Shown here piece by piece: positions 3,595 to 39,027 of a stretch of 64,000 bases of DNA. Source of the DNA: Escherichia phage vB_EcoM-UFV11; the sequence record OP555982.1, one strand, 5' to 3'. The position numbers and the translations under genes are program-made. The notes below the pieces were generated by a model, which was not told the origin of the DNA, did no database searches, and saw nothing but the letters and a program-made list of their open reading frames with translations. Positions within the stretch are counted from its first letter, which is position 1, and each line of letters begins with the position of its first letter.

Positions 3595-4795
3595 ATTTTG
3601 TAATAATGTCAAACTGCTCTTTAAAGCAGAAGCTTGAATCTTGGTGCTGATACAAAAATTCATAAGCTTTTTCGCGTTCACGGTCATAAAGAGTTCGGTC
3701 AGATGACAGTTCTTTAATACGTTCAAATGTTGATTCCATGTCATTTTCATCAAACCAAATGATACCGCTATCATGCGAGGTCAAAGGAGTATTATCAACA
3801 CGGAATTTTAAATTTTCGCCTGTAGATTTCCAAAATACCGGAATTGTTCCACATGCACCAAGCTCGAGATGAGTATATTCTAAAGAACGTTGTAGATATT
3901 TTTTGTCCAACTTACTCAGCTGATAACCAAATCCGGATTTACTCATGCGTTCAAGCATTTCGCTATTTACATAACGGTCAAGAATTTGCGTTGGCAAATT
4001 AGGAGCAATTTTAATTTGGTCTACTTGATGAAGACGATAATACTCGTATGGAATTCCTTTTTCTTTAATAGGAATGAACGCTGGAGAACGTTCCAGACCT
4101 TCCATAATAGTACTTAGTCCTGCAGGTTTAAGATGTTTTTCATGAAAATCAAACATCTGATAAAAACCTTTCCACGTAGTAGTACGACCAATCCAACGAT
4201 TGATATTCATGTTAATTTCAGAAACATCTTTCCAGTAGGTTGATCGAACCTTTGCAATATCCATCGGAGGCTGAAAGTTATATACTGTCGGTGCTTCTTC
4301 AATATCATCAAACAGAGAAACTGTTTCAGGATACCATTCTTTCATCAGAACTTTATTAAAATCGCCATTATCAGAATGGCTAAAAATAACATCAGCTCGA
4401 CGAACAGTTTCTTCTAATCCCAAATTTCGACGCAAAGAAAGAGAAGAATGGTCATGTTGATAAACTACAACACGAACAGAAGGTTTAATGTTATCAATAA
4501 TTTTTTTATAGTTATTAATAGTGTCTTCTTCAACTGAAGTAGCAGGAACTGAATTGATAATTAGAATATCACAATCATTTACCAGCTTAAGTGTTTTATC
4601 GTATTCTTTTGCCAATAAAACCGGAATTGAAAATGATTTATAATCATGCGCGCAATTACGAGTAAATGATTTATCTTTAGCATAAACCAAAGTTACTTCA
4701 TGACCATTTTTAATAAACCAATCACGTTGCTCAAGAGAAAATTTAGTTACACCACAACCTTCAAGACCTCGAGCCATAAAAATACATACTTTCAT
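3593..4795 (-). CDS. a-gt: DNA alpha-glucosyltransferase
   Basis: 400 aa, length and sequence character of T4 Agt (hydroxymethylcytosine alpha-glucosyltransferase); position between 47 and 55. Confidence 0.85.
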   Translation of the reverse strand: MKVCIFMARGLEGCGVTKFSLEQRDWFIKNGHEVTLVYAKDKSFTRNCAHDYKSFSIPVLLAKEYDKTLKLVNDCDILIINSVPATSVEEDTINNYKKIIDNIKPSVRVVVYQHDHSSLSLRRNLGLEETVRRADVIFSHSDNGDFNKVLMKEWYPETVSLFDDIEEAPTVYNFQPPMDIAKVRSTYWKDVSEINMNINRWIGRTTTWKGFYQMFDFHEKHLKPAGLSTIMEGLERSPAFIPIKEKGIPYEYYRLHQVDQIKIAPNLPTQILDRYVNSEMLERMSKSGFGYQLSKLDKKYLQRSLEYTHLELGACGTIPVFWKSTGENLKFRVDNTPLTSHDSGIIWFDENDMESTFERIKELSSDRTLYDREREKAYEFLYQHQDSSFCFKEQFDIITK

Positions 4796-28621: not shown

Positions 28622-28900
28622 TTATTCTTTAAATCTAATCAATTTATTCATAGACTTTGAAACTTCTGTACGAACCTCATGTAGATTTTTGAGTTGTTCA
28701 AGACGCTGCGTATAGTAAGCAATTTCATCTTCTTCGAGACAGTCCTGTGAATCTTCTTTAAGATAGCGTGCATAGTCCTGGAAAGCGTTACGGATTACTT
28801 CCTGGAAATCATCAAGACTTTGAATTTTCTTAGGAGCAGCAGATACACGACGAGGGGCAGTATAATACTCATAACCAAACCCTGCGCTTAATTGAGCCAT
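28622..28900 (-). CDS. hypothetical protein (vs.x region)
   Basis: internal ATG MAQLSAG overlaps upstream stop. Confidence 0.45.
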
Positions 28901-29166
28901 TAGTATTTTTCCTCTGGTTGGAACACAGCACGACAAGCCCACATACTGGCTTCTTTGAGTTTCGTTTTAGCAATAGTTAACTGATCGAGGCTTTCGGCGT
29001 AATTCTTCGCGAGTTCATCATCTTCACAGCTATCAAATGCTTCCCAAAATTCATCGTATAAAGCATCAAAGATAAGTCCTAAACGAACTTCAGCGTCTTT
29101 AATAGCATTTACTTTACCGATTTTTTCGTCGGTATGTGGCTTATAACCTTTAATATCTTCAATCAT
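28900..29166 (-). CDS. small helical hypothetical protein (88 aa); position compatible with T4 vs.4
   Basis: [45 protein letters not shown]...; start 4 nt after upstream stop. Confidence 0.45.
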
Positions 29167-29380
29167 ATTTGACTTCCTCACCAGTACATAAATCGTATTC
29201 AACTAAACGAATAGGTTCATGAATGCCATATCCCTGAACAGAAATTTCTGTCGTAGGATAAATTCCATCAATATCACCCATATTCCAGGCTTCGTTAAAT
29301 TGCTGTTCGCCTGAATTACTAAACCACTCGGCGAAAGCATTTAGCACATCTTTAGAACCTTCAATAATTATCTTTGCCAT
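29159..29380 (-). CDS. small acidic hypothetical protein
   Basis: 73-aa ORF, start overlaps upstream stop. Confidence 0.5.
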   Translation of the reverse strand: MAKIIIEGSKDVLNAFAEWFSNSGEQQFNEAWNMGDIDGIYPTTEISVQGYGIHEPIRLVEYDLCTGEEVKYD

Positions 29381-29742
29381 TACAAACTCTCGGTAAAGGT
29401 ACGAGCGATAACGTCGCGCTGCTGTTCCGGAGTCAGAGAGTTAAAGCGAACTGCATAACCGGATACACGGATGGTCAGCTGCGGATATTTTTCCGGATGC
29501 TTAACTGCATCTTCCAGAGTTTCACGACGCAGAACGTTAACGTTCAGGTGTTGACCACCTTCAATTTTAACTGTAGGCTGTTGCTCAATTTCAATTTCAC
29601 GGGCATGCAAACCGTAGAAAATTTCTGGGTCTACAAAAGAGTCCTCTTTAAAAGTTTTAGAGACAATAATTCGTGCTTGAATACCATCTTCAAAATAAAT
29701 AGTACCTTTATGCGTGCCTTCAAGAATTTGATATGCTTTCAT
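29380..29742 (-). CDS. autonomous glycyl-radical cofactor (GrcA/YfiD-like)
   Basis: 120 aa; C-terminal about 60 aa [59 protein letters not shown] matches E. coli GrcA as recalled; local GC near 50%. Confidence 0.8.
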
Positions 29743-29749
29743 ATAAACC

Positions 29750-30079
29750 TCAATTAGAAAATAAATTTATCCAAGATTGTTCTTTAATTAAAAATGGCTC
29801 AGAATCATATGCCATTAAACTCTGCGTGATTAGTCCTTTAAAAGGTCCATCAATAAATTCCATGGTAAAATATGGAATTTTATTCATTAGCCGTGCGTTA
29901 GGAGCAGTACATAAAACTCTGCATCCTTTGAATACGCCTTTTTGTAATTTGTATTGCTTAGGATAAAATTCGCTCAAGACGTTGTTATTTGCCAAAATTT
30001 CAAAATGATTCACCAATTTATTTTTAATAGTTTTTGGCGAAAAATAAAGATATTCGAAAAGTTGCGTGTCTGTCATCAT
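29750..30079 (-). CDS. hypothetical protein translationally coupled to upstream P-loop gene
   Basis: ATG ATG overlaps stop of the upstream ORF (CAATGATGACA); about 109 aa. Confidence 0.5.
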
Positions 30080-30615
30080 TGCATTCCGATTATGAAAAAC
30101 TGTGGACGAGTAATACCACCAATGCAACATTTAATATTACAGCAGCAGTGTACAGTTTCAATATGGACACTATAAATCTTATCCATATCAGGAGATTTGA
30201 CAGGTTCATCAATTATATACAAAATTCGCGAAAGCGATAAACCTCTGAACTTGCTTCCTTTATTACCAATAAAACTGCGCACAGAATCAGCAAATAAACG
30301 AAAACGTATATCATCATTAGAATAACGCGAAAATTCCTTTTTAATGTTATTTGAAGAAATTTTAGCGTAAGCTGAAGTATTAGAAAGAACAATAACTGTT
30401 CCGCCATCATACAACCAATTAGCGGCAAAATTAGTTACTGCAGTTGATTTACCGGATTGACGTCCACCATCTAGTCGAAGTGTGCAATACTGCTTAAGTA
30501 AGTCTTCAAATGGTGGGATATAATCGTTTTTACAAATTTCTTCTACTCTAGCGTCAGAATGGTGTGTAAAAGCATTCATCAGGGATAGATAAGGACCAGT
30601 TAAAAATGTTCTCAT
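30076..30615 (-). CDS. P-loop NTPase (small ATPase/kinase-like)
   Basis: about 179 aa from MRTFLTGPY; Walker A DGGRQSGKST, Walker B-like ILYIIDEP, C-terminal Cys cluster HCCCNIKCC. Confidence 0.55.
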   Translation of the reverse strand: MRTFLTGPYLSLMNAFTHHSDARVEEICKNDYIPPFEDLLKQYCTLRLDGGRQSGKSTAVTNFAANWLYDGGTVIVLSNTSAYAKISSNNIKKEFSRYSNDDIRFRLFADSVRSFIGNKGSKFRGLSLSRILYIIDEPVKSPDMDKIYSVHIETVHCCCNIKCCIGGITRPQFFIIGMQ

Positions 30616-30768
30616 TTTATTCTCTCTAAATTTGGGCCATTCCATGGCGCATGAATTGTCCATTTCTGTATTTACCCATTACCGCACTTGGGCTCGACCT
30701 TATTACAGGTTGGCGGGAATCCCTCACAGAATCATGAGGTCCAGCTTGTTCCCATATTTCTTATTTGC

Positions 30769-31242
30769 TTATTTGAATGATTTAACGTACTGAATAGAAC
30801 CTTTACTATTCACAAAGGCAATTTTACCATTTTTGTTATACATAGTAGCAGTACGTTGATAGCCATAAGTTTGTTTACCAGATTGATAACCAACTAATGC
30901 GAAATTATCTTCACCCATTTTATTCTGTTTAGCGCGAATGCGTTCATGACCATGTGCCATAAGAACCTTAGCATCACCAGTTGCAATGGACCGACGAGTT
31001 TTTTCATCTTCAACTGTATTAACAAAGTCGTCAAATGAATCAAATTTAGCATGAGATTTATTATACAGTTTTCCATCTACTGCATAATTATATCCTTGTA
31101 CATCCATCTCAACTTCTGTACCATCATCTAATACCGCAGTAATTTTCTGTCCTTTTTTAAATTTCAAAAGATCAGTAAAAGATTCAGCAATAATTTGAGA
31201 ATTAATAGCTGCTTCAGTAATAAATTCTTTATACGTTTTCAT
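30769..31242 (-). CDS. internal (head-packaged) protein with capsid-targeting leader
   Basis: 157 aa; N-terminus MKTYKEFITEA (T4 internal-protein leader, prohead-protease site after ITE). Confidence 0.65.
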   Translation of the reverse strand: MKTYKEFITEAAINSQIIAESFTDLLKFKKGQKITAVLDDGTEVEMDVQGYNYAVDGKLYNKSHAKFDSFDDFVNTVEDEKTRRSIATGDAKVLMAHGHERIRAKQNKMGEDNFALVGYQSGKQTYGYQRTATMYNKNGKIAFVNSKGSIQYVKSFK

Positions 31243-31258
31243 GTGTATCCTTTAATTT

Positions 31259-31576
31259 TTATTCTTTAGGGAAGTTTTTAGAATATGCATCATAAAGCTT
31301 ATTTCCAATACGGCGGAAAACTCTAGCCGCAAAACGATTTTCTGGGTTTTTAATCATGATTTGCATCATATAAGTACCCGCGTCAGAAAGAGCTTCTTCA
31401 TAGTACCCGTTAATTTCTTTAAGAGTCCTACGTTTACCACCAGGACCATCAACAGTGATTTTCCATTTACCTGTAGAAGTGCGACTTGGCGGTTCAACTT
31501 GTTCAATCCAGATATAACCGCCTTCTACACGCTGTCCTGCAACAGATTCTGCAATAAATTCTTTATACGTTTTCAT
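31259..31576 (-). CDS. internal (head-packaged) protein with capsid-targeting leader
   Basis: 105 aa; N-terminus MKTYKEFIAES. Confidence 0.65.
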   Translation of the reverse strand: MKTYKEFIAESVAGQRVEGGYIWIEQVEPPSRTSTGKWKITVDGPGGKRRTLKEINGYYEEALSDAGTYMMQIMIKNPENRFAARVFRRIGNKLYDAYSKNFPKE

Positions 31577-31613
31577 GTGTTTCCTTTAAATATTTTAATT
31601 AGTAACTGTGAAT

Positions 31614-31643
31614 ATACTATCACAGTTTTAGGAGAAAGTAAAC
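31614..31643 (-). promoter_or_regulatory. T4-type early promoter (GTTTAC-N18-TAGTAT)
   Basis: GTTTAC 31643..31638; -10-like TAGTAT 31619..31614. Confidence 0.45.
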
Positions 31644-31647
31644 AACT

Positions 31648-32616
<969 letters not shown>

Positions 32617-32635
<19 letters not shown>

Positions 32636-32958
32636 TCAGTGATAAAGTTATTTAAATTTTGAGTGTATTTCTTTTCATCAAAAATCTTTTGTTGTCTGCG
32701 TAGCCGCCATGGCATTTCAATGAACGTGTACCATATCCCAGATAATATTGCTGCTGTAAAAATATTAACAAGTATGGTTAAAAGAATCCAATCTCCTATT
32801 CTGTCCATTGGATTTTTTATAAAAAAGTAAAATACGAATGATGTCACAGGACCTATTAATACATCAGTAGGAATTAGCTGACGCTTTAGTTCATACTTCA
32901 CAGGTTCACTTGGAAGGTATAGTGATGGCTTTGACATATTCTCTACATTCCTTAACAA
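32617..32958 (-). CDS. membrane protein
   Basis: two hydrophobic helices (VTSFVFYFFI and WILLTILVNIFTAAILSGIWYTFI). Confidence 0.5.
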
Positions 32959-38742: not shown

Positions 38743-39027
38743 TTACAAAAGATTTTTAGCAATAATTTTAAGCTGAGCTACTGAAATATGCTTGGCTTTA
38801 AACAAAGCAGTTTCTTCAGCAGGGGAGATAACGATTGTAGCACCATCTTTCTTAGCGGACCATCCATCACCCAGGTAAACAGTACCTTTGACTTCTTCGC
38901 CATCAACCAGGCTAATCATCGGTTTACCTTCACGTCCTTTGTTTGCTTTAATAACTTCAGAAGTAAGGGTCGCTTCAGTCAAAGTAGAAGCGTTAGTGGT
39001 TGAAGTGAATTCTTGATAAGTTTTCAT
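38743..39027 (-). CDS. internal protein at the ipI locus (capsid-targeting leader)
   Basis: 94 aa; N-terminus MKTYQEF; located between 57B and tRNA region as T4 ipI. Confidence 0.65.
   Translation of the reverse strand: MKTYQEFTSTTNASTLTEATLTSEVIKANKGREGKPMISLVDGEEVKGTVYLGDGWSAKKDGATIVISPAEETALFKAKHISVAQLKIIAKNLL

What the first reader, a model, noticed from the sequence alone, without database searches (positions are those of the whole stretch)
30769..31576. Two internal-protein genes with conserved capsid-targeting leaders but divergent bodies (ipII/ipIII locus)
Seen: adjacent 157-aa and 105-aa ORFs both start MKTYKEFI(T/A)E and then diverge completely; a third leader-bearing gene lies at the ipI locus (38743-39027). 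The internal-protein loci in T-even phages are swappable cassettes; the bodies here do not match T4 IPII/IPIII as far as I recall, so they may encode different injected effectors.
Basis: partly seen in the sequence, partly recalled or inferred. Interest (0 to 1): 0.4.

Follow-up and report, generated by a model that had tools for sequence, protein, structure and literature searches.

The report
Known T-even internal proteins Ip10, Ip4
These two neighbouring genes are the already catalogued injected "internal proteins" Ip10 and Ip4 of T4-like phages: they share only the short capsid-packaging tag with T4's IPII and IPIII, and their targets in the host are still unknown.

Summary
On the minus strand, 31259-31576 (105 aa) and 30769-31242 (157 aa) both begin MKTYKEFI(A/T)E and share nothing else, by BLASTP or by profile-profile comparison. 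Neither body resembles T4 IPII or IPIII. A third tagged gene at 38743-39027 is a true IPI, 91% identical to T4's.

The genes are not new. The window is 100% identical to Escherichia phage vB_EcoM-UFV09 over the 1.1 kb searched. The 157-aa protein is Ip4/IpIV: 99.4% identical to phage T2 IpIV, 98% to phage K3 Ip4, a member of Pfam DUF7412, and present in 470 phage records. The 105-aa protein is Ip10: 98% identical to PP01 Ip10 and present in 189 records.

Compared with T4, a 786-bp ip10+ip4 segment replaces denV+ipII+ipIII. One breakpoint lies at the end of the tag codons, which fits the cassette model published in 1994.

Predicted structures are confident but match no solved or viral fold apart from K3 Ip4 itself.

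The most likely mechanism is inferred, not shown. The tag directs packaging, the prohead protease removes it, and the protein is injected with the DNA to block a modification-dependent restriction enzyme. All four characterised relatives do this. However, ip4-ip10 gave no reproducible inhibition of the GmrSD variants tested in 2025.

Verdict: real, correctly read, already known.

The parts
31259..31576 (-). ip10 gene: 105-aa internal-protein precursor. The predicted mature Ip10* is 95 aa with pI 9.6.
   Evidence: ORF. It is 98.1% identical to PP01 'Ip10 internal head protein' and occurs in 189 phage records. It matches phrog_3966 at 1.4e-33 and has no Pfam family. The AF2 model has pLDDT 83.6 with a beta-beta-beta-alpha-beta-beta body from about residue 21.
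31547..31576 (-). Leader (capsid-targeting sequence) of Ip10: codons 1-10, MKTYKEFIAE, ending in an IxE protease motif.
   Evidence: T4 IPII/IPIII have MKTYQEFIAE, annotated as a 10-residue signal peptide in record X04567.1. DNA homology to T4 ipIII resumes at window 31544, which is the end of this leader.
30769..31242 (-). ip4 (ipIV) gene: 157-aa internal-protein precursor. The predicted mature form is 147 aa if cut after E10, or 137 aa if cut after E20, with pI about 9.1-9.3.
   Evidence: ORF. It matches Pfam DUF7412 at 317.8 bits (cut-off 27) and phrog_3155 'internal virion protein' at 1.6e-101. It is 99.4% identical to T2 ipIV and occurs in 470 records. It is 98% identical to K3 Ip4, UniProt Q38388. 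The AF2 model has pLDDT 77.3.
31183..31242 (-). Ip4 leader region. Codons 1-10 are MKTYKEFITE (ItE site). Codons 11-20 end in a second, family-invariant Glu in an (I/L/M)xE context (IIAE|S).
   Evidence: E10 and E20 are invariant in the 14-sequence alignment, and the residue three positions before E20 is I, L or M in every member. Residues 6-20 have pLDDT below 50, and the confidently predicted body begins after about residue 25. Motif scan.
30758..31543 (.). The cassette: 786 bp with no DNA homology to T4. It replaces T4's 1,440-bp denV + ipII + ipIII-body segment.
   Evidence: blastn of window against T4. Homology covers 29300-30757 (95.5%) and 31544-32700 (93.9%). Between them, only the 45-nt leader stretch matches.
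38743..39027 (-). ipI gene (94 aa) at the second internal-protein locus, between 57B and trna.4.
   Evidence: Pfam IPI_T4 at 1.3e-51. 91% identical to T4 IPI, with the LTE|A cleavage context conserved.
31648..32142 (-). Gene e (T4-type lysozyme, 164 aa): conserved upstream anchor of the locus.
32156..32176 (-). Two exact T4 late-promoter motifs (TATAAATA) just upstream of e. They are the nearest late-type promoters on the ip strand.
   Evidence: 32156-32163 and 32169-32176, minus strand. There is no exact TATAAATA between e and ip10 or between ip10 and ip4. The motif count in the whole window is not above chance (12 found, 10.65 expected), so position is the only argument.
30076..30663 (-). 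vs.8 homologue: conserved downstream anchor of the locus.
   Evidence: tblastn with T4 Vs.8 gives 89% identity over residues 26-219. It matches phrog_1488.

Best explanation
The two ORFs are the internal-protein genes ip10 and ip4 (ipIV) of a T2/PP01-like Tequatrovirus.

Proposed mechanism:
1. The genes are expressed late with the lysozyme gene.
2. Each precursor is carried into the assembling prohead core by its 10-residue N-terminal capsid-targeting sequence, MKTYKEFI(A/T)E.
3. The prohead protease gp21 cuts after the Glu of the (I/L)xE motif. For Ip4 it probably cuts again after the invariant E20.
4. The small basic mature proteins stay with the packaged DNA and are injected with it.
5. In the cell they most likely act as stoichiometric inhibitors of a first-response host nuclease. 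The best guess is a modification-dependent (type IV) restriction enzyme that attacks glucosyl-hydroxymethylcytosine DNA.

Shown here: gene identity, the leader and its cleavage motifs, basic charge, locus position, cassette breakpoints, orphan folds, and restriction of both families to T4-like phages.

Inferred by analogy: packaging, cleavage, injection and the anti-restriction target.
For: - Identity: 99.4% to T2 ipIV, Pfam DUF7412 at 317.8 bits, 98% to K3 Ip4. 98% to PP01 Ip10.
- Leader and IxE sites. The T4 IPII/IPIII record annotates exactly this 10-residue stretch as the removed signal peptide.
- Charge: mature forms have pI 9.1-9.6 and net charge about +4 to +5, like T4 IPII*.
- Position: same locus as T4 ipIII/ipII, with one breakpoint at the leader.
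- Substrate: the phage encodes alpha-glucosyltransferase (91% to T4), so its DNA should be a type IV restriction substrate.
- Precedent: T4 Ip1, Ip2 and Ip3 each inhibit a different GmrSD enzyme and share only the leader (PMC12373910). Another leader-bearing protein, Bas37_0260, inhibits McrBC (bioRxiv 10.1101/2025.11.20.689424). The leader suffices to package foreign proteins (PMC3012670).
- Fold: both bodies are predicted to be compact single domains without enzyme-like fold matches, as expected for binding inhibitors.
Against: - No direct evidence of virion incorporation of Ip4 or Ip10 was found in the held literature.
- ip4-ip10 showed no reproducible inhibition when tested against the GmrSD variants of that study (PMC12373910, Supplementary Fig. 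9). A GmrSD target is therefore unproven, and part of that space has been excluded.
- There is no exact late-promoter motif directly upstream of either gene.
Confidence: 0.8

Rival explanations
1. Ip4 and/or Ip10 are injected counter-defence or host-takeover effectors, but their target is not a type IV restriction enzyme. Candidates include another nuclease-based or abortive-infection system, or a host process.
For: ip4-ip10 gave no reproducible inhibition of the tested GmrSD variants (PMC12373910). Ip4 homologues at 61-71% identity occur in Klebsiella, Salmonella, Serratia and Raoultella T4-like phages, so the target must be widespread across Enterobacteriaceae. The neighbourhood carries other anti-defence genes, such as the Acb2 homologue at 28900-29166.
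Against: All four leader-bearing proteins with known function inhibit type IV restriction. The 15 GmrSD groups tested cover only part of a very diverse family. Other type IV families were not in that panel.
Confidence: 0.25
2. They are generic basic head-filling proteins. Their main role would be to neutralise DNA charge and aid packaging or ejection, with no specific host target.
For: Mature forms are basic, with pI 9.1-9.6. NMR work found lysines of T4 internal proteins contacting DNA phosphates, and about 1000 internal-protein molecules are embedded in T4 DNA (PMC3012670).
Against: A generic role would not explain complete replacement of the bodies while the leader is kept. It would not explain loci with no ip gene at all, as at the e locus of Bas37. 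It also fails to explain why the equally basic T4 IPI, IPII and IPIII each have a specific target. Ip4 has many invariant non-basic residues across genera, which suggests a specific interaction surface.
Confidence: 0.12
3. The leaders are recombination relics and the proteins are not packaged. They would be ordinary cytoplasmic accessory proteins.
For: No virion proteomics was found for these two proteins.
Against: The leader, including the Glu cleavage site, is conserved at protein level even in homologues only 50-70% identical from other genera. This indicates selection on the peptide rather than mere DNA homology. The leader alone targets foreign proteins to the capsid (PMC3012670).
Confidence: 0.03

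Closest known systems
Ip4 / IpIV of phages K3 and T2 (UniProt Q38388; T2 gene ipIV; Pfam DUF7412, PHROG 3155)
   Same: Essentially the same protein: 99.4% identity to T2 IpIV and 98% to K3 Ip4, full length, at the same locus downstream of e.
   Different: One residue in the leader differs: K5 here against Q5 in P0001 and in T2 ipIV. In T2 it stands alone at the locus, whereas here ip10 precedes it.
Ip10 of PP01, SP18 and VR20/VR25 (PHROG 3966)
   Same: 98% identical to PP01 Ip10 and about 70% to the SP18 and VR Ip10 proteins. The position is the same, immediately after e, or after denV in some phages.
   Different: Nothing substantive. Some records mislabel it 'IpII' (Sf25), although it is unrelated to T4 IPII.
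T4 IPII and IPIII (inhibitors of GmrSD-ECOR21 and GmrSD-ECOR17)
   Same: Same locus, same 10-residue leader with an IxE site, similar size range and similar basic charge. Packaging and injection are presumed to follow the same route.
   Different: There is no body similarity by BLASTP or alignment. The targets of Ip4 and Ip10 are unknown. ip4-ip10 showed no reproducible inhibition of the GmrSD variants tested.
T4 IPI* (GmrSD-CT596 inhibitor; solved NMR structure) and Bas37_0260 (McrBC inhibitor)
   Same: Both are leader-bearing, protease-processed, injected small proteins encoded at the other ip locus. The window carries its own IPI, 91% identical to T4's. Like IPI, Ip4 may lose a longer propeptide of about 20 residues.
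   Different: Sequences are unrelated. IPI* does not appear among the top structural matches of either model.

Membership tests
T-even internal proteins (capsid-targeted, gp21-processed, injected) | N-terminal capsid-targeting sequence resembling MKTYQEFIAE | tested here: met
   The leaders are MKTYKEFIAE and MKTYKEFITE, 9/10 and 8/10 identical to the T4 IPII/IPIII leader.
T-even internal proteins (capsid-targeted, gp21-processed, injected) | Prohead-protease cleavage motif (L/I)-x-E at the end of the leader | tested here: met
   IAE|S in Ip10; ITE|A plus the invariant IAE|S at E20 in Ip4. Actual cleavage was not observed.
T-even internal proteins (capsid-targeted, gp21-processed, injected) | Encoded at one of the two polymorphic ip loci (e to denV/vs.8, or 57B to trna.4) | tested here: met
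   The genes lie between e and vs.8, replacing T4 ipIII/ipII/denV.
T-even internal proteins (capsid-targeted, gp21-processed, injected) | Physically present in the virion head and injected with the DNA | not testable with these tools
   This needs virion mass spectrometry or injection assays. No such data for Ip4 or Ip10 were found in the held papers.
T-even internal proteins (capsid-targeted, gp21-processed, injected) | Late-gene expression | tested here: inconclusive
   Two exact TATAAATA motifs lie upstream of e on the same strand, with none directly upstream of ip10 or ip4. The e-ip10 hairpin is not better than shuffles, z = -1.6.
Ip4 / DUF7412 (PF24183) | Full-length match to the family profile above the curated cut-off | tested here: met
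   317.8 bits against a cut-off of 27, covering residues 1-157 of a 158-position profile.
Ip10 (PHROG 3966) | Full-length match to the family and to named Ip10 proteins | tested here: met
   phrog_3966 at 1.4e-33 over residues 1-105. 98% identity to PP01 Ip10 and 70% to SP18 Ip10.
T4 IPII / IPIII | Sequence similarity of the mature body | tested here: not met
   BLASTP aligns only the first 13-14 residues.
Type IV restriction (GmrSD/McrBC) inhibitors | Relief of restriction by a specific modification-dependent nuclease | not testable with these tools
   Published tests of ip4-ip10 against the study's GmrSD variants found no reproducible inhibition (PMC12373910). Other type IV families are untested.

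The most novel reading that the evidence does not exclude
Ip4 and/or Ip10 neutralise a defence outside the GmrSD subtypes already tested. This could be another family of glucosyl-hmC-dependent nucleases, or a non-restriction system. Their orphan folds would then represent new inhibitor architectures. Ip4 is more frequent in sequenced phages than T4 IPIII (470 against 261 records) and is conserved across phages of several enterobacterial genera. Its target would therefore be a common, still unrecognised barrier to T4-like phages.
Probability: 0.3. Interest if true: 0.45.

Novelty: already known. Interest (0 to 1): 0.15.

Why it matters
The biology is of current interest. Internal proteins are injected anti-restriction weapons, and their repertoire helps set the host range of T4-like phages, which matters for therapeutic use. 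Ip4 and Ip10 are among the commonest members without a known target.

This window adds nothing to what public records already hold. The genes are identical or nearly identical to named genes in hundreds of genomes. The cassette principle was published in 1994 and functionally extended in 2022-2025.

Tried and rejected
2. NCBIfam gave only sub-threshold noise.
3. The exhaustive HMM search with the Ip10 profile returned three giant proteins (E from 1e-9 to 2e-30). Pfam shows they are repeat proteins (FAZ1 coiled-coil repeats, TIG repeats) that accumulate many tiny matches, so they are artefacts.
5. The afdb50 fold library was unavailable.
6. Rfam hits in the region (a eukaryotic lncRNA and a snoRNA model, E=0.1-0.7) are noise.
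7. I suspected that the GC-rich stretch downstream of ip4 (30664-30757) was a structured element. It is simply homologous to the 5' part of T4 vs.8.
8. Ip10's representative protein was listed with a longest contig of 489 kb, which hinted at a bacterial context. The four loci returned by the look-up are all roughly 167-169-kb T4-like phage genomes; the 489-kb contig itself was not among them.
9. Repoila et al. 1994 is not held in the library, so the original naming rests on database names and on citations in PMC12373910 and PMC3012670.
10. Bas37 was considered as a possible source of fitness data for ip4/ip10. Its e locus has no ip genes.

Full report
**Observation.** Two ORFs lie on the minus strand, 16 nt apart, directly downstream of a T4-type lysozyme gene e at 31648-32142.
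- 31259-31576 encodes 105 aa beginning MKTYKEFIAESVAG.
- 30769-31242 encodes 157 aa beginning MKTYKEFITEAAIN.

The two proteins align only at the N-terminus. BLASTP gives a single segment over residues 1-17. Profile-profile comparison of the two families aligns 13 columns. At the DNA level the shared stretch runs from the Shine-Dalgarno region through codon 8, with 36 of 37 nt identical. A six-frame scan of the 64-kb window for the leader pattern finds exactly three ORFs: these two and 38743-39027.

**What the window is.** The 1.1-kb region is 100% identical to Escherichia phage vB_EcoM-UFV09 and three sibling isolates (Tequatrovirus). It is 95-97% identical to PP01, EC121, Sf25 and many others. 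The window also encodes an alpha-glucosyltransferase 91% identical to T4's (3596-4795, minus strand). The phage is therefore expected to have glucosyl-hydroxymethylcytosine DNA.

**Identity of the two genes.**
- The 157-aa protein is a full-length member of Pfam DUF7412 (317.8 bits against a cut-off of 27) and of PHROG 3155, 'internal virion protein'. It is 99.4% identical to the annotated ipIV gene of phage T2 and to Ip4/IpIV of AR1, PST and ime09. It occurs in 470 phage records, including Klebsiella, Salmonella, Raoultella and Serratia T4-like phages at 61-71% identity. The only significant match in the viral structure library is UniProt Q38388, 'Ip4 [Enterobacteria phage K3]', at 98% identity.
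- The 105-aa protein is 98% identical to 'Ip10 internal head protein' of PP01 and about 70% identical to Ip10 of SP18, VR20 and VR25. It has roughly 50% relatives in Enterobacter and Cronobacter T4-like phages and occurs in 189 records. It has no Pfam family and matches PHROG 3966.
- For comparison, T4 IPIII and IPII are found in 261 and 198 records. Ip4 is thus more common in sequenced phages than either T4 protein.
- The third leader-bearing ORF is a true IPI: Pfam IPI_T4 at 1.3e-51 and 91% identity to T4 IPI.

**Relation to T4 IPII/IPIII and the cassette structure.**
- T4 has the order e - ipIII - ipII - denV - vs.8. The window has e - ip10 - ip4 - vs.8.
- BLASTP of Ip4 against IPIII, and of Ip10 against IPII, aligns only residues 1-13 or 1-14.
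- blastn of window against T4 shows homology over 29300-30757 (95.5%) and 31544-32700 (93.9%). The 786 bp in between replace 1,440 bp of T4 comprising denV, ipII and the ipIII body.
- The right-hand breakpoint falls at the end of the leader codons of the first ip gene. This is what recombination within the conserved leader would produce.
- Other arrangements at the same site:
  - T2: e-ipIV-vs.8.
  - JLBYU22 and several metagenomic or genomic contigs: e-denV-ip10-ip4-vs.8.
  - A Klebsiella phage: e-ip4-like-ipII-like-vs.8.
  - An Enterobacter Kanagawavirus: e-(91-aa ip)-denV-ip10-like-vs.8.
  - Bas37: e-denV-vs.8 with no ip gene.
- This is the 'genomic polymorphism' of ip loci attributed to Repoila et al. 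1994, as cited in PMC3012670 and PMC12373910. I could not read the 1994 paper itself.

**Anatomy of the proteins.**
- Both leaders end in an I-x-E motif, the context cut by the T4 prohead protease. This rests on established knowledge of gp21. The T4 record X04567.1 annotates residues -10 to -1 of IPII and IPIII as the removed signal peptide.
- In Ip4, a second Glu at position 20 is invariant across 14 family members. The residue three positions before it is always I, L or M. AlphaFold gives pLDDT below 50 for residues 6-20. Ip4 may therefore lose 20 residues, as IPI loses 18-19. This is an inference.
- Other (L/I/M)xE matches (Ip10 LKE54, Ip4 MGE111) are not conserved in the families. LKE54 lies within predicted strand 49-56.
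- The mature forms are basic, with pI 9.1-9.6 and net charge about +4 to +5, similar to IPII*.

**Structure and remote homology.**
- The AF2 models are reasonably confident. Ip4 has mean pLDDT 77.3 and pTM 0.72: an N-terminal helix, a beta-hairpin region, three short helices and a C-terminal beta-sheet. Ip10 has pLDDT 83.6 and pTM 0.75, with a beta-beta-beta-alpha-beta-beta body.
- Sequence-profile searches of the PDB find nothing below E=0.5.
- An exhaustive HMM search with the Ip10 profile over 1.84 billion cluster representatives recovers only two phage clusters, plus three repeat-protein artefacts.
- Both bodies are therefore orphan folds confined to T4-like phages.

**Mechanism.** The following is established for the class, not for these two proteins.
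- The leader is sufficient to target even foreign proteins into the T4 head.
- About 1000 internal-protein molecules per head are embedded in the DNA and injected with it (PMC3012670).
- IPI inhibits GmrSD of strain CT596. IPIII is needed to infect ECOR17 and still works when expressed without its leader in the host (PMC9391042).
- Ip2 and Ip3 each inhibit a distinct GmrSD variant, with no cross-protection (PMC12373910).
- A further leader-bearing protein at the ipI locus of phage Bas37 inhibits McrBC (bioRxiv 10.1101/2025.11.20.689424).

By analogy, Ip10 and Ip4 are most likely packaged, processed and injected inhibitors of modification-dependent restriction. The caveat is direct. The 2025 study tested ip4-ip10 against its GmrSD variants, and apparent interactions were not reproducible.

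I put about 0.9 on 'packaged, processed, injected internal proteins'. I put about 0.5 on 'type IV restriction inhibitor' specifically. Alternatives are another defence target (0.25) or a generic DNA-associated role (0.12). Expression is probably driven from the two exact late-promoter motifs upstream of e, but this is weakly supported.

**Verdict.** The finding is already known: the genes are named, widespread and under active study, and only their targets remain open. Interest is low for this window. A modest residual interest attaches to the unknown target of a very common injected protein.

Noticed in passing
window 30664-30768 and the whole window: denV (endonuclease V, UV repair) is absent. 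In T4 it lies between ipII and vs.8, and tblastn with T4 DenV finds nothing anywhere in the 64 kb. Close relatives (JLBYU22, slur phages) carry denV between e and ip10 instead, so denV behaves as another mobile cassette at this locus.
   Followed up: partly
window 30626-30727 (-) and 30076-30663 (-): The vs.8 homologue is split relative to T4. T4 Vs.8 residues 1-32 match one frame (30632-30727, 94% identity) and residues 26-219 match another (30079-30663, 89%). This implies a frameshift near codon 30. The functional start is probably an internal Met, as annotated in PP01.
   Followed up: partly
window 28900-29166 (-): The vs.4 homologue matches Pfam Acb2_Tad1_hairpin (E=9.4e-20), the anti-CBASS/anti-Thoeris sponge family. 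The e-to-regB stretch thus clusters several counter-defence genes near the ip cassette.
   Followed up: partly
window 29380-29742 (-): The vs.6 homologue is a 120-aa autonomous glycyl-radical cofactor (GrcA/YfiD-like; Pfam Gly_radical 2.5e-18), as in T4.
   Followed up: no
window 38743-39027 (-): The IPI leader here is MKTYQEF..., whereas T4 IPI has MKTFKEF.... The propeptide is one residue shorter (18 against 19 residues before the LTE/ITE|A site). The mature 76-residue body differs from T4 at 3 positions.
   Followed up: partly
window 3596-4795 (-): The alpha-glucosyltransferase is only 91% identical to T4's. The flanking gp47 and gp55 are 99-100% identical, so the DNA-modification gene diverges faster than its neighbours.
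   Followed up: no
L003 (Shigella phage Sf25) 2657-3464, and other records: Public annotations of this gene pair are inconsistent. Sf25 and SH7 label Ip4/Ip10 as 'IpIII/IpII' although the bodies are unrelated. Many records, including UFV09, call them hypothetical proteins.
   Followed up: yes
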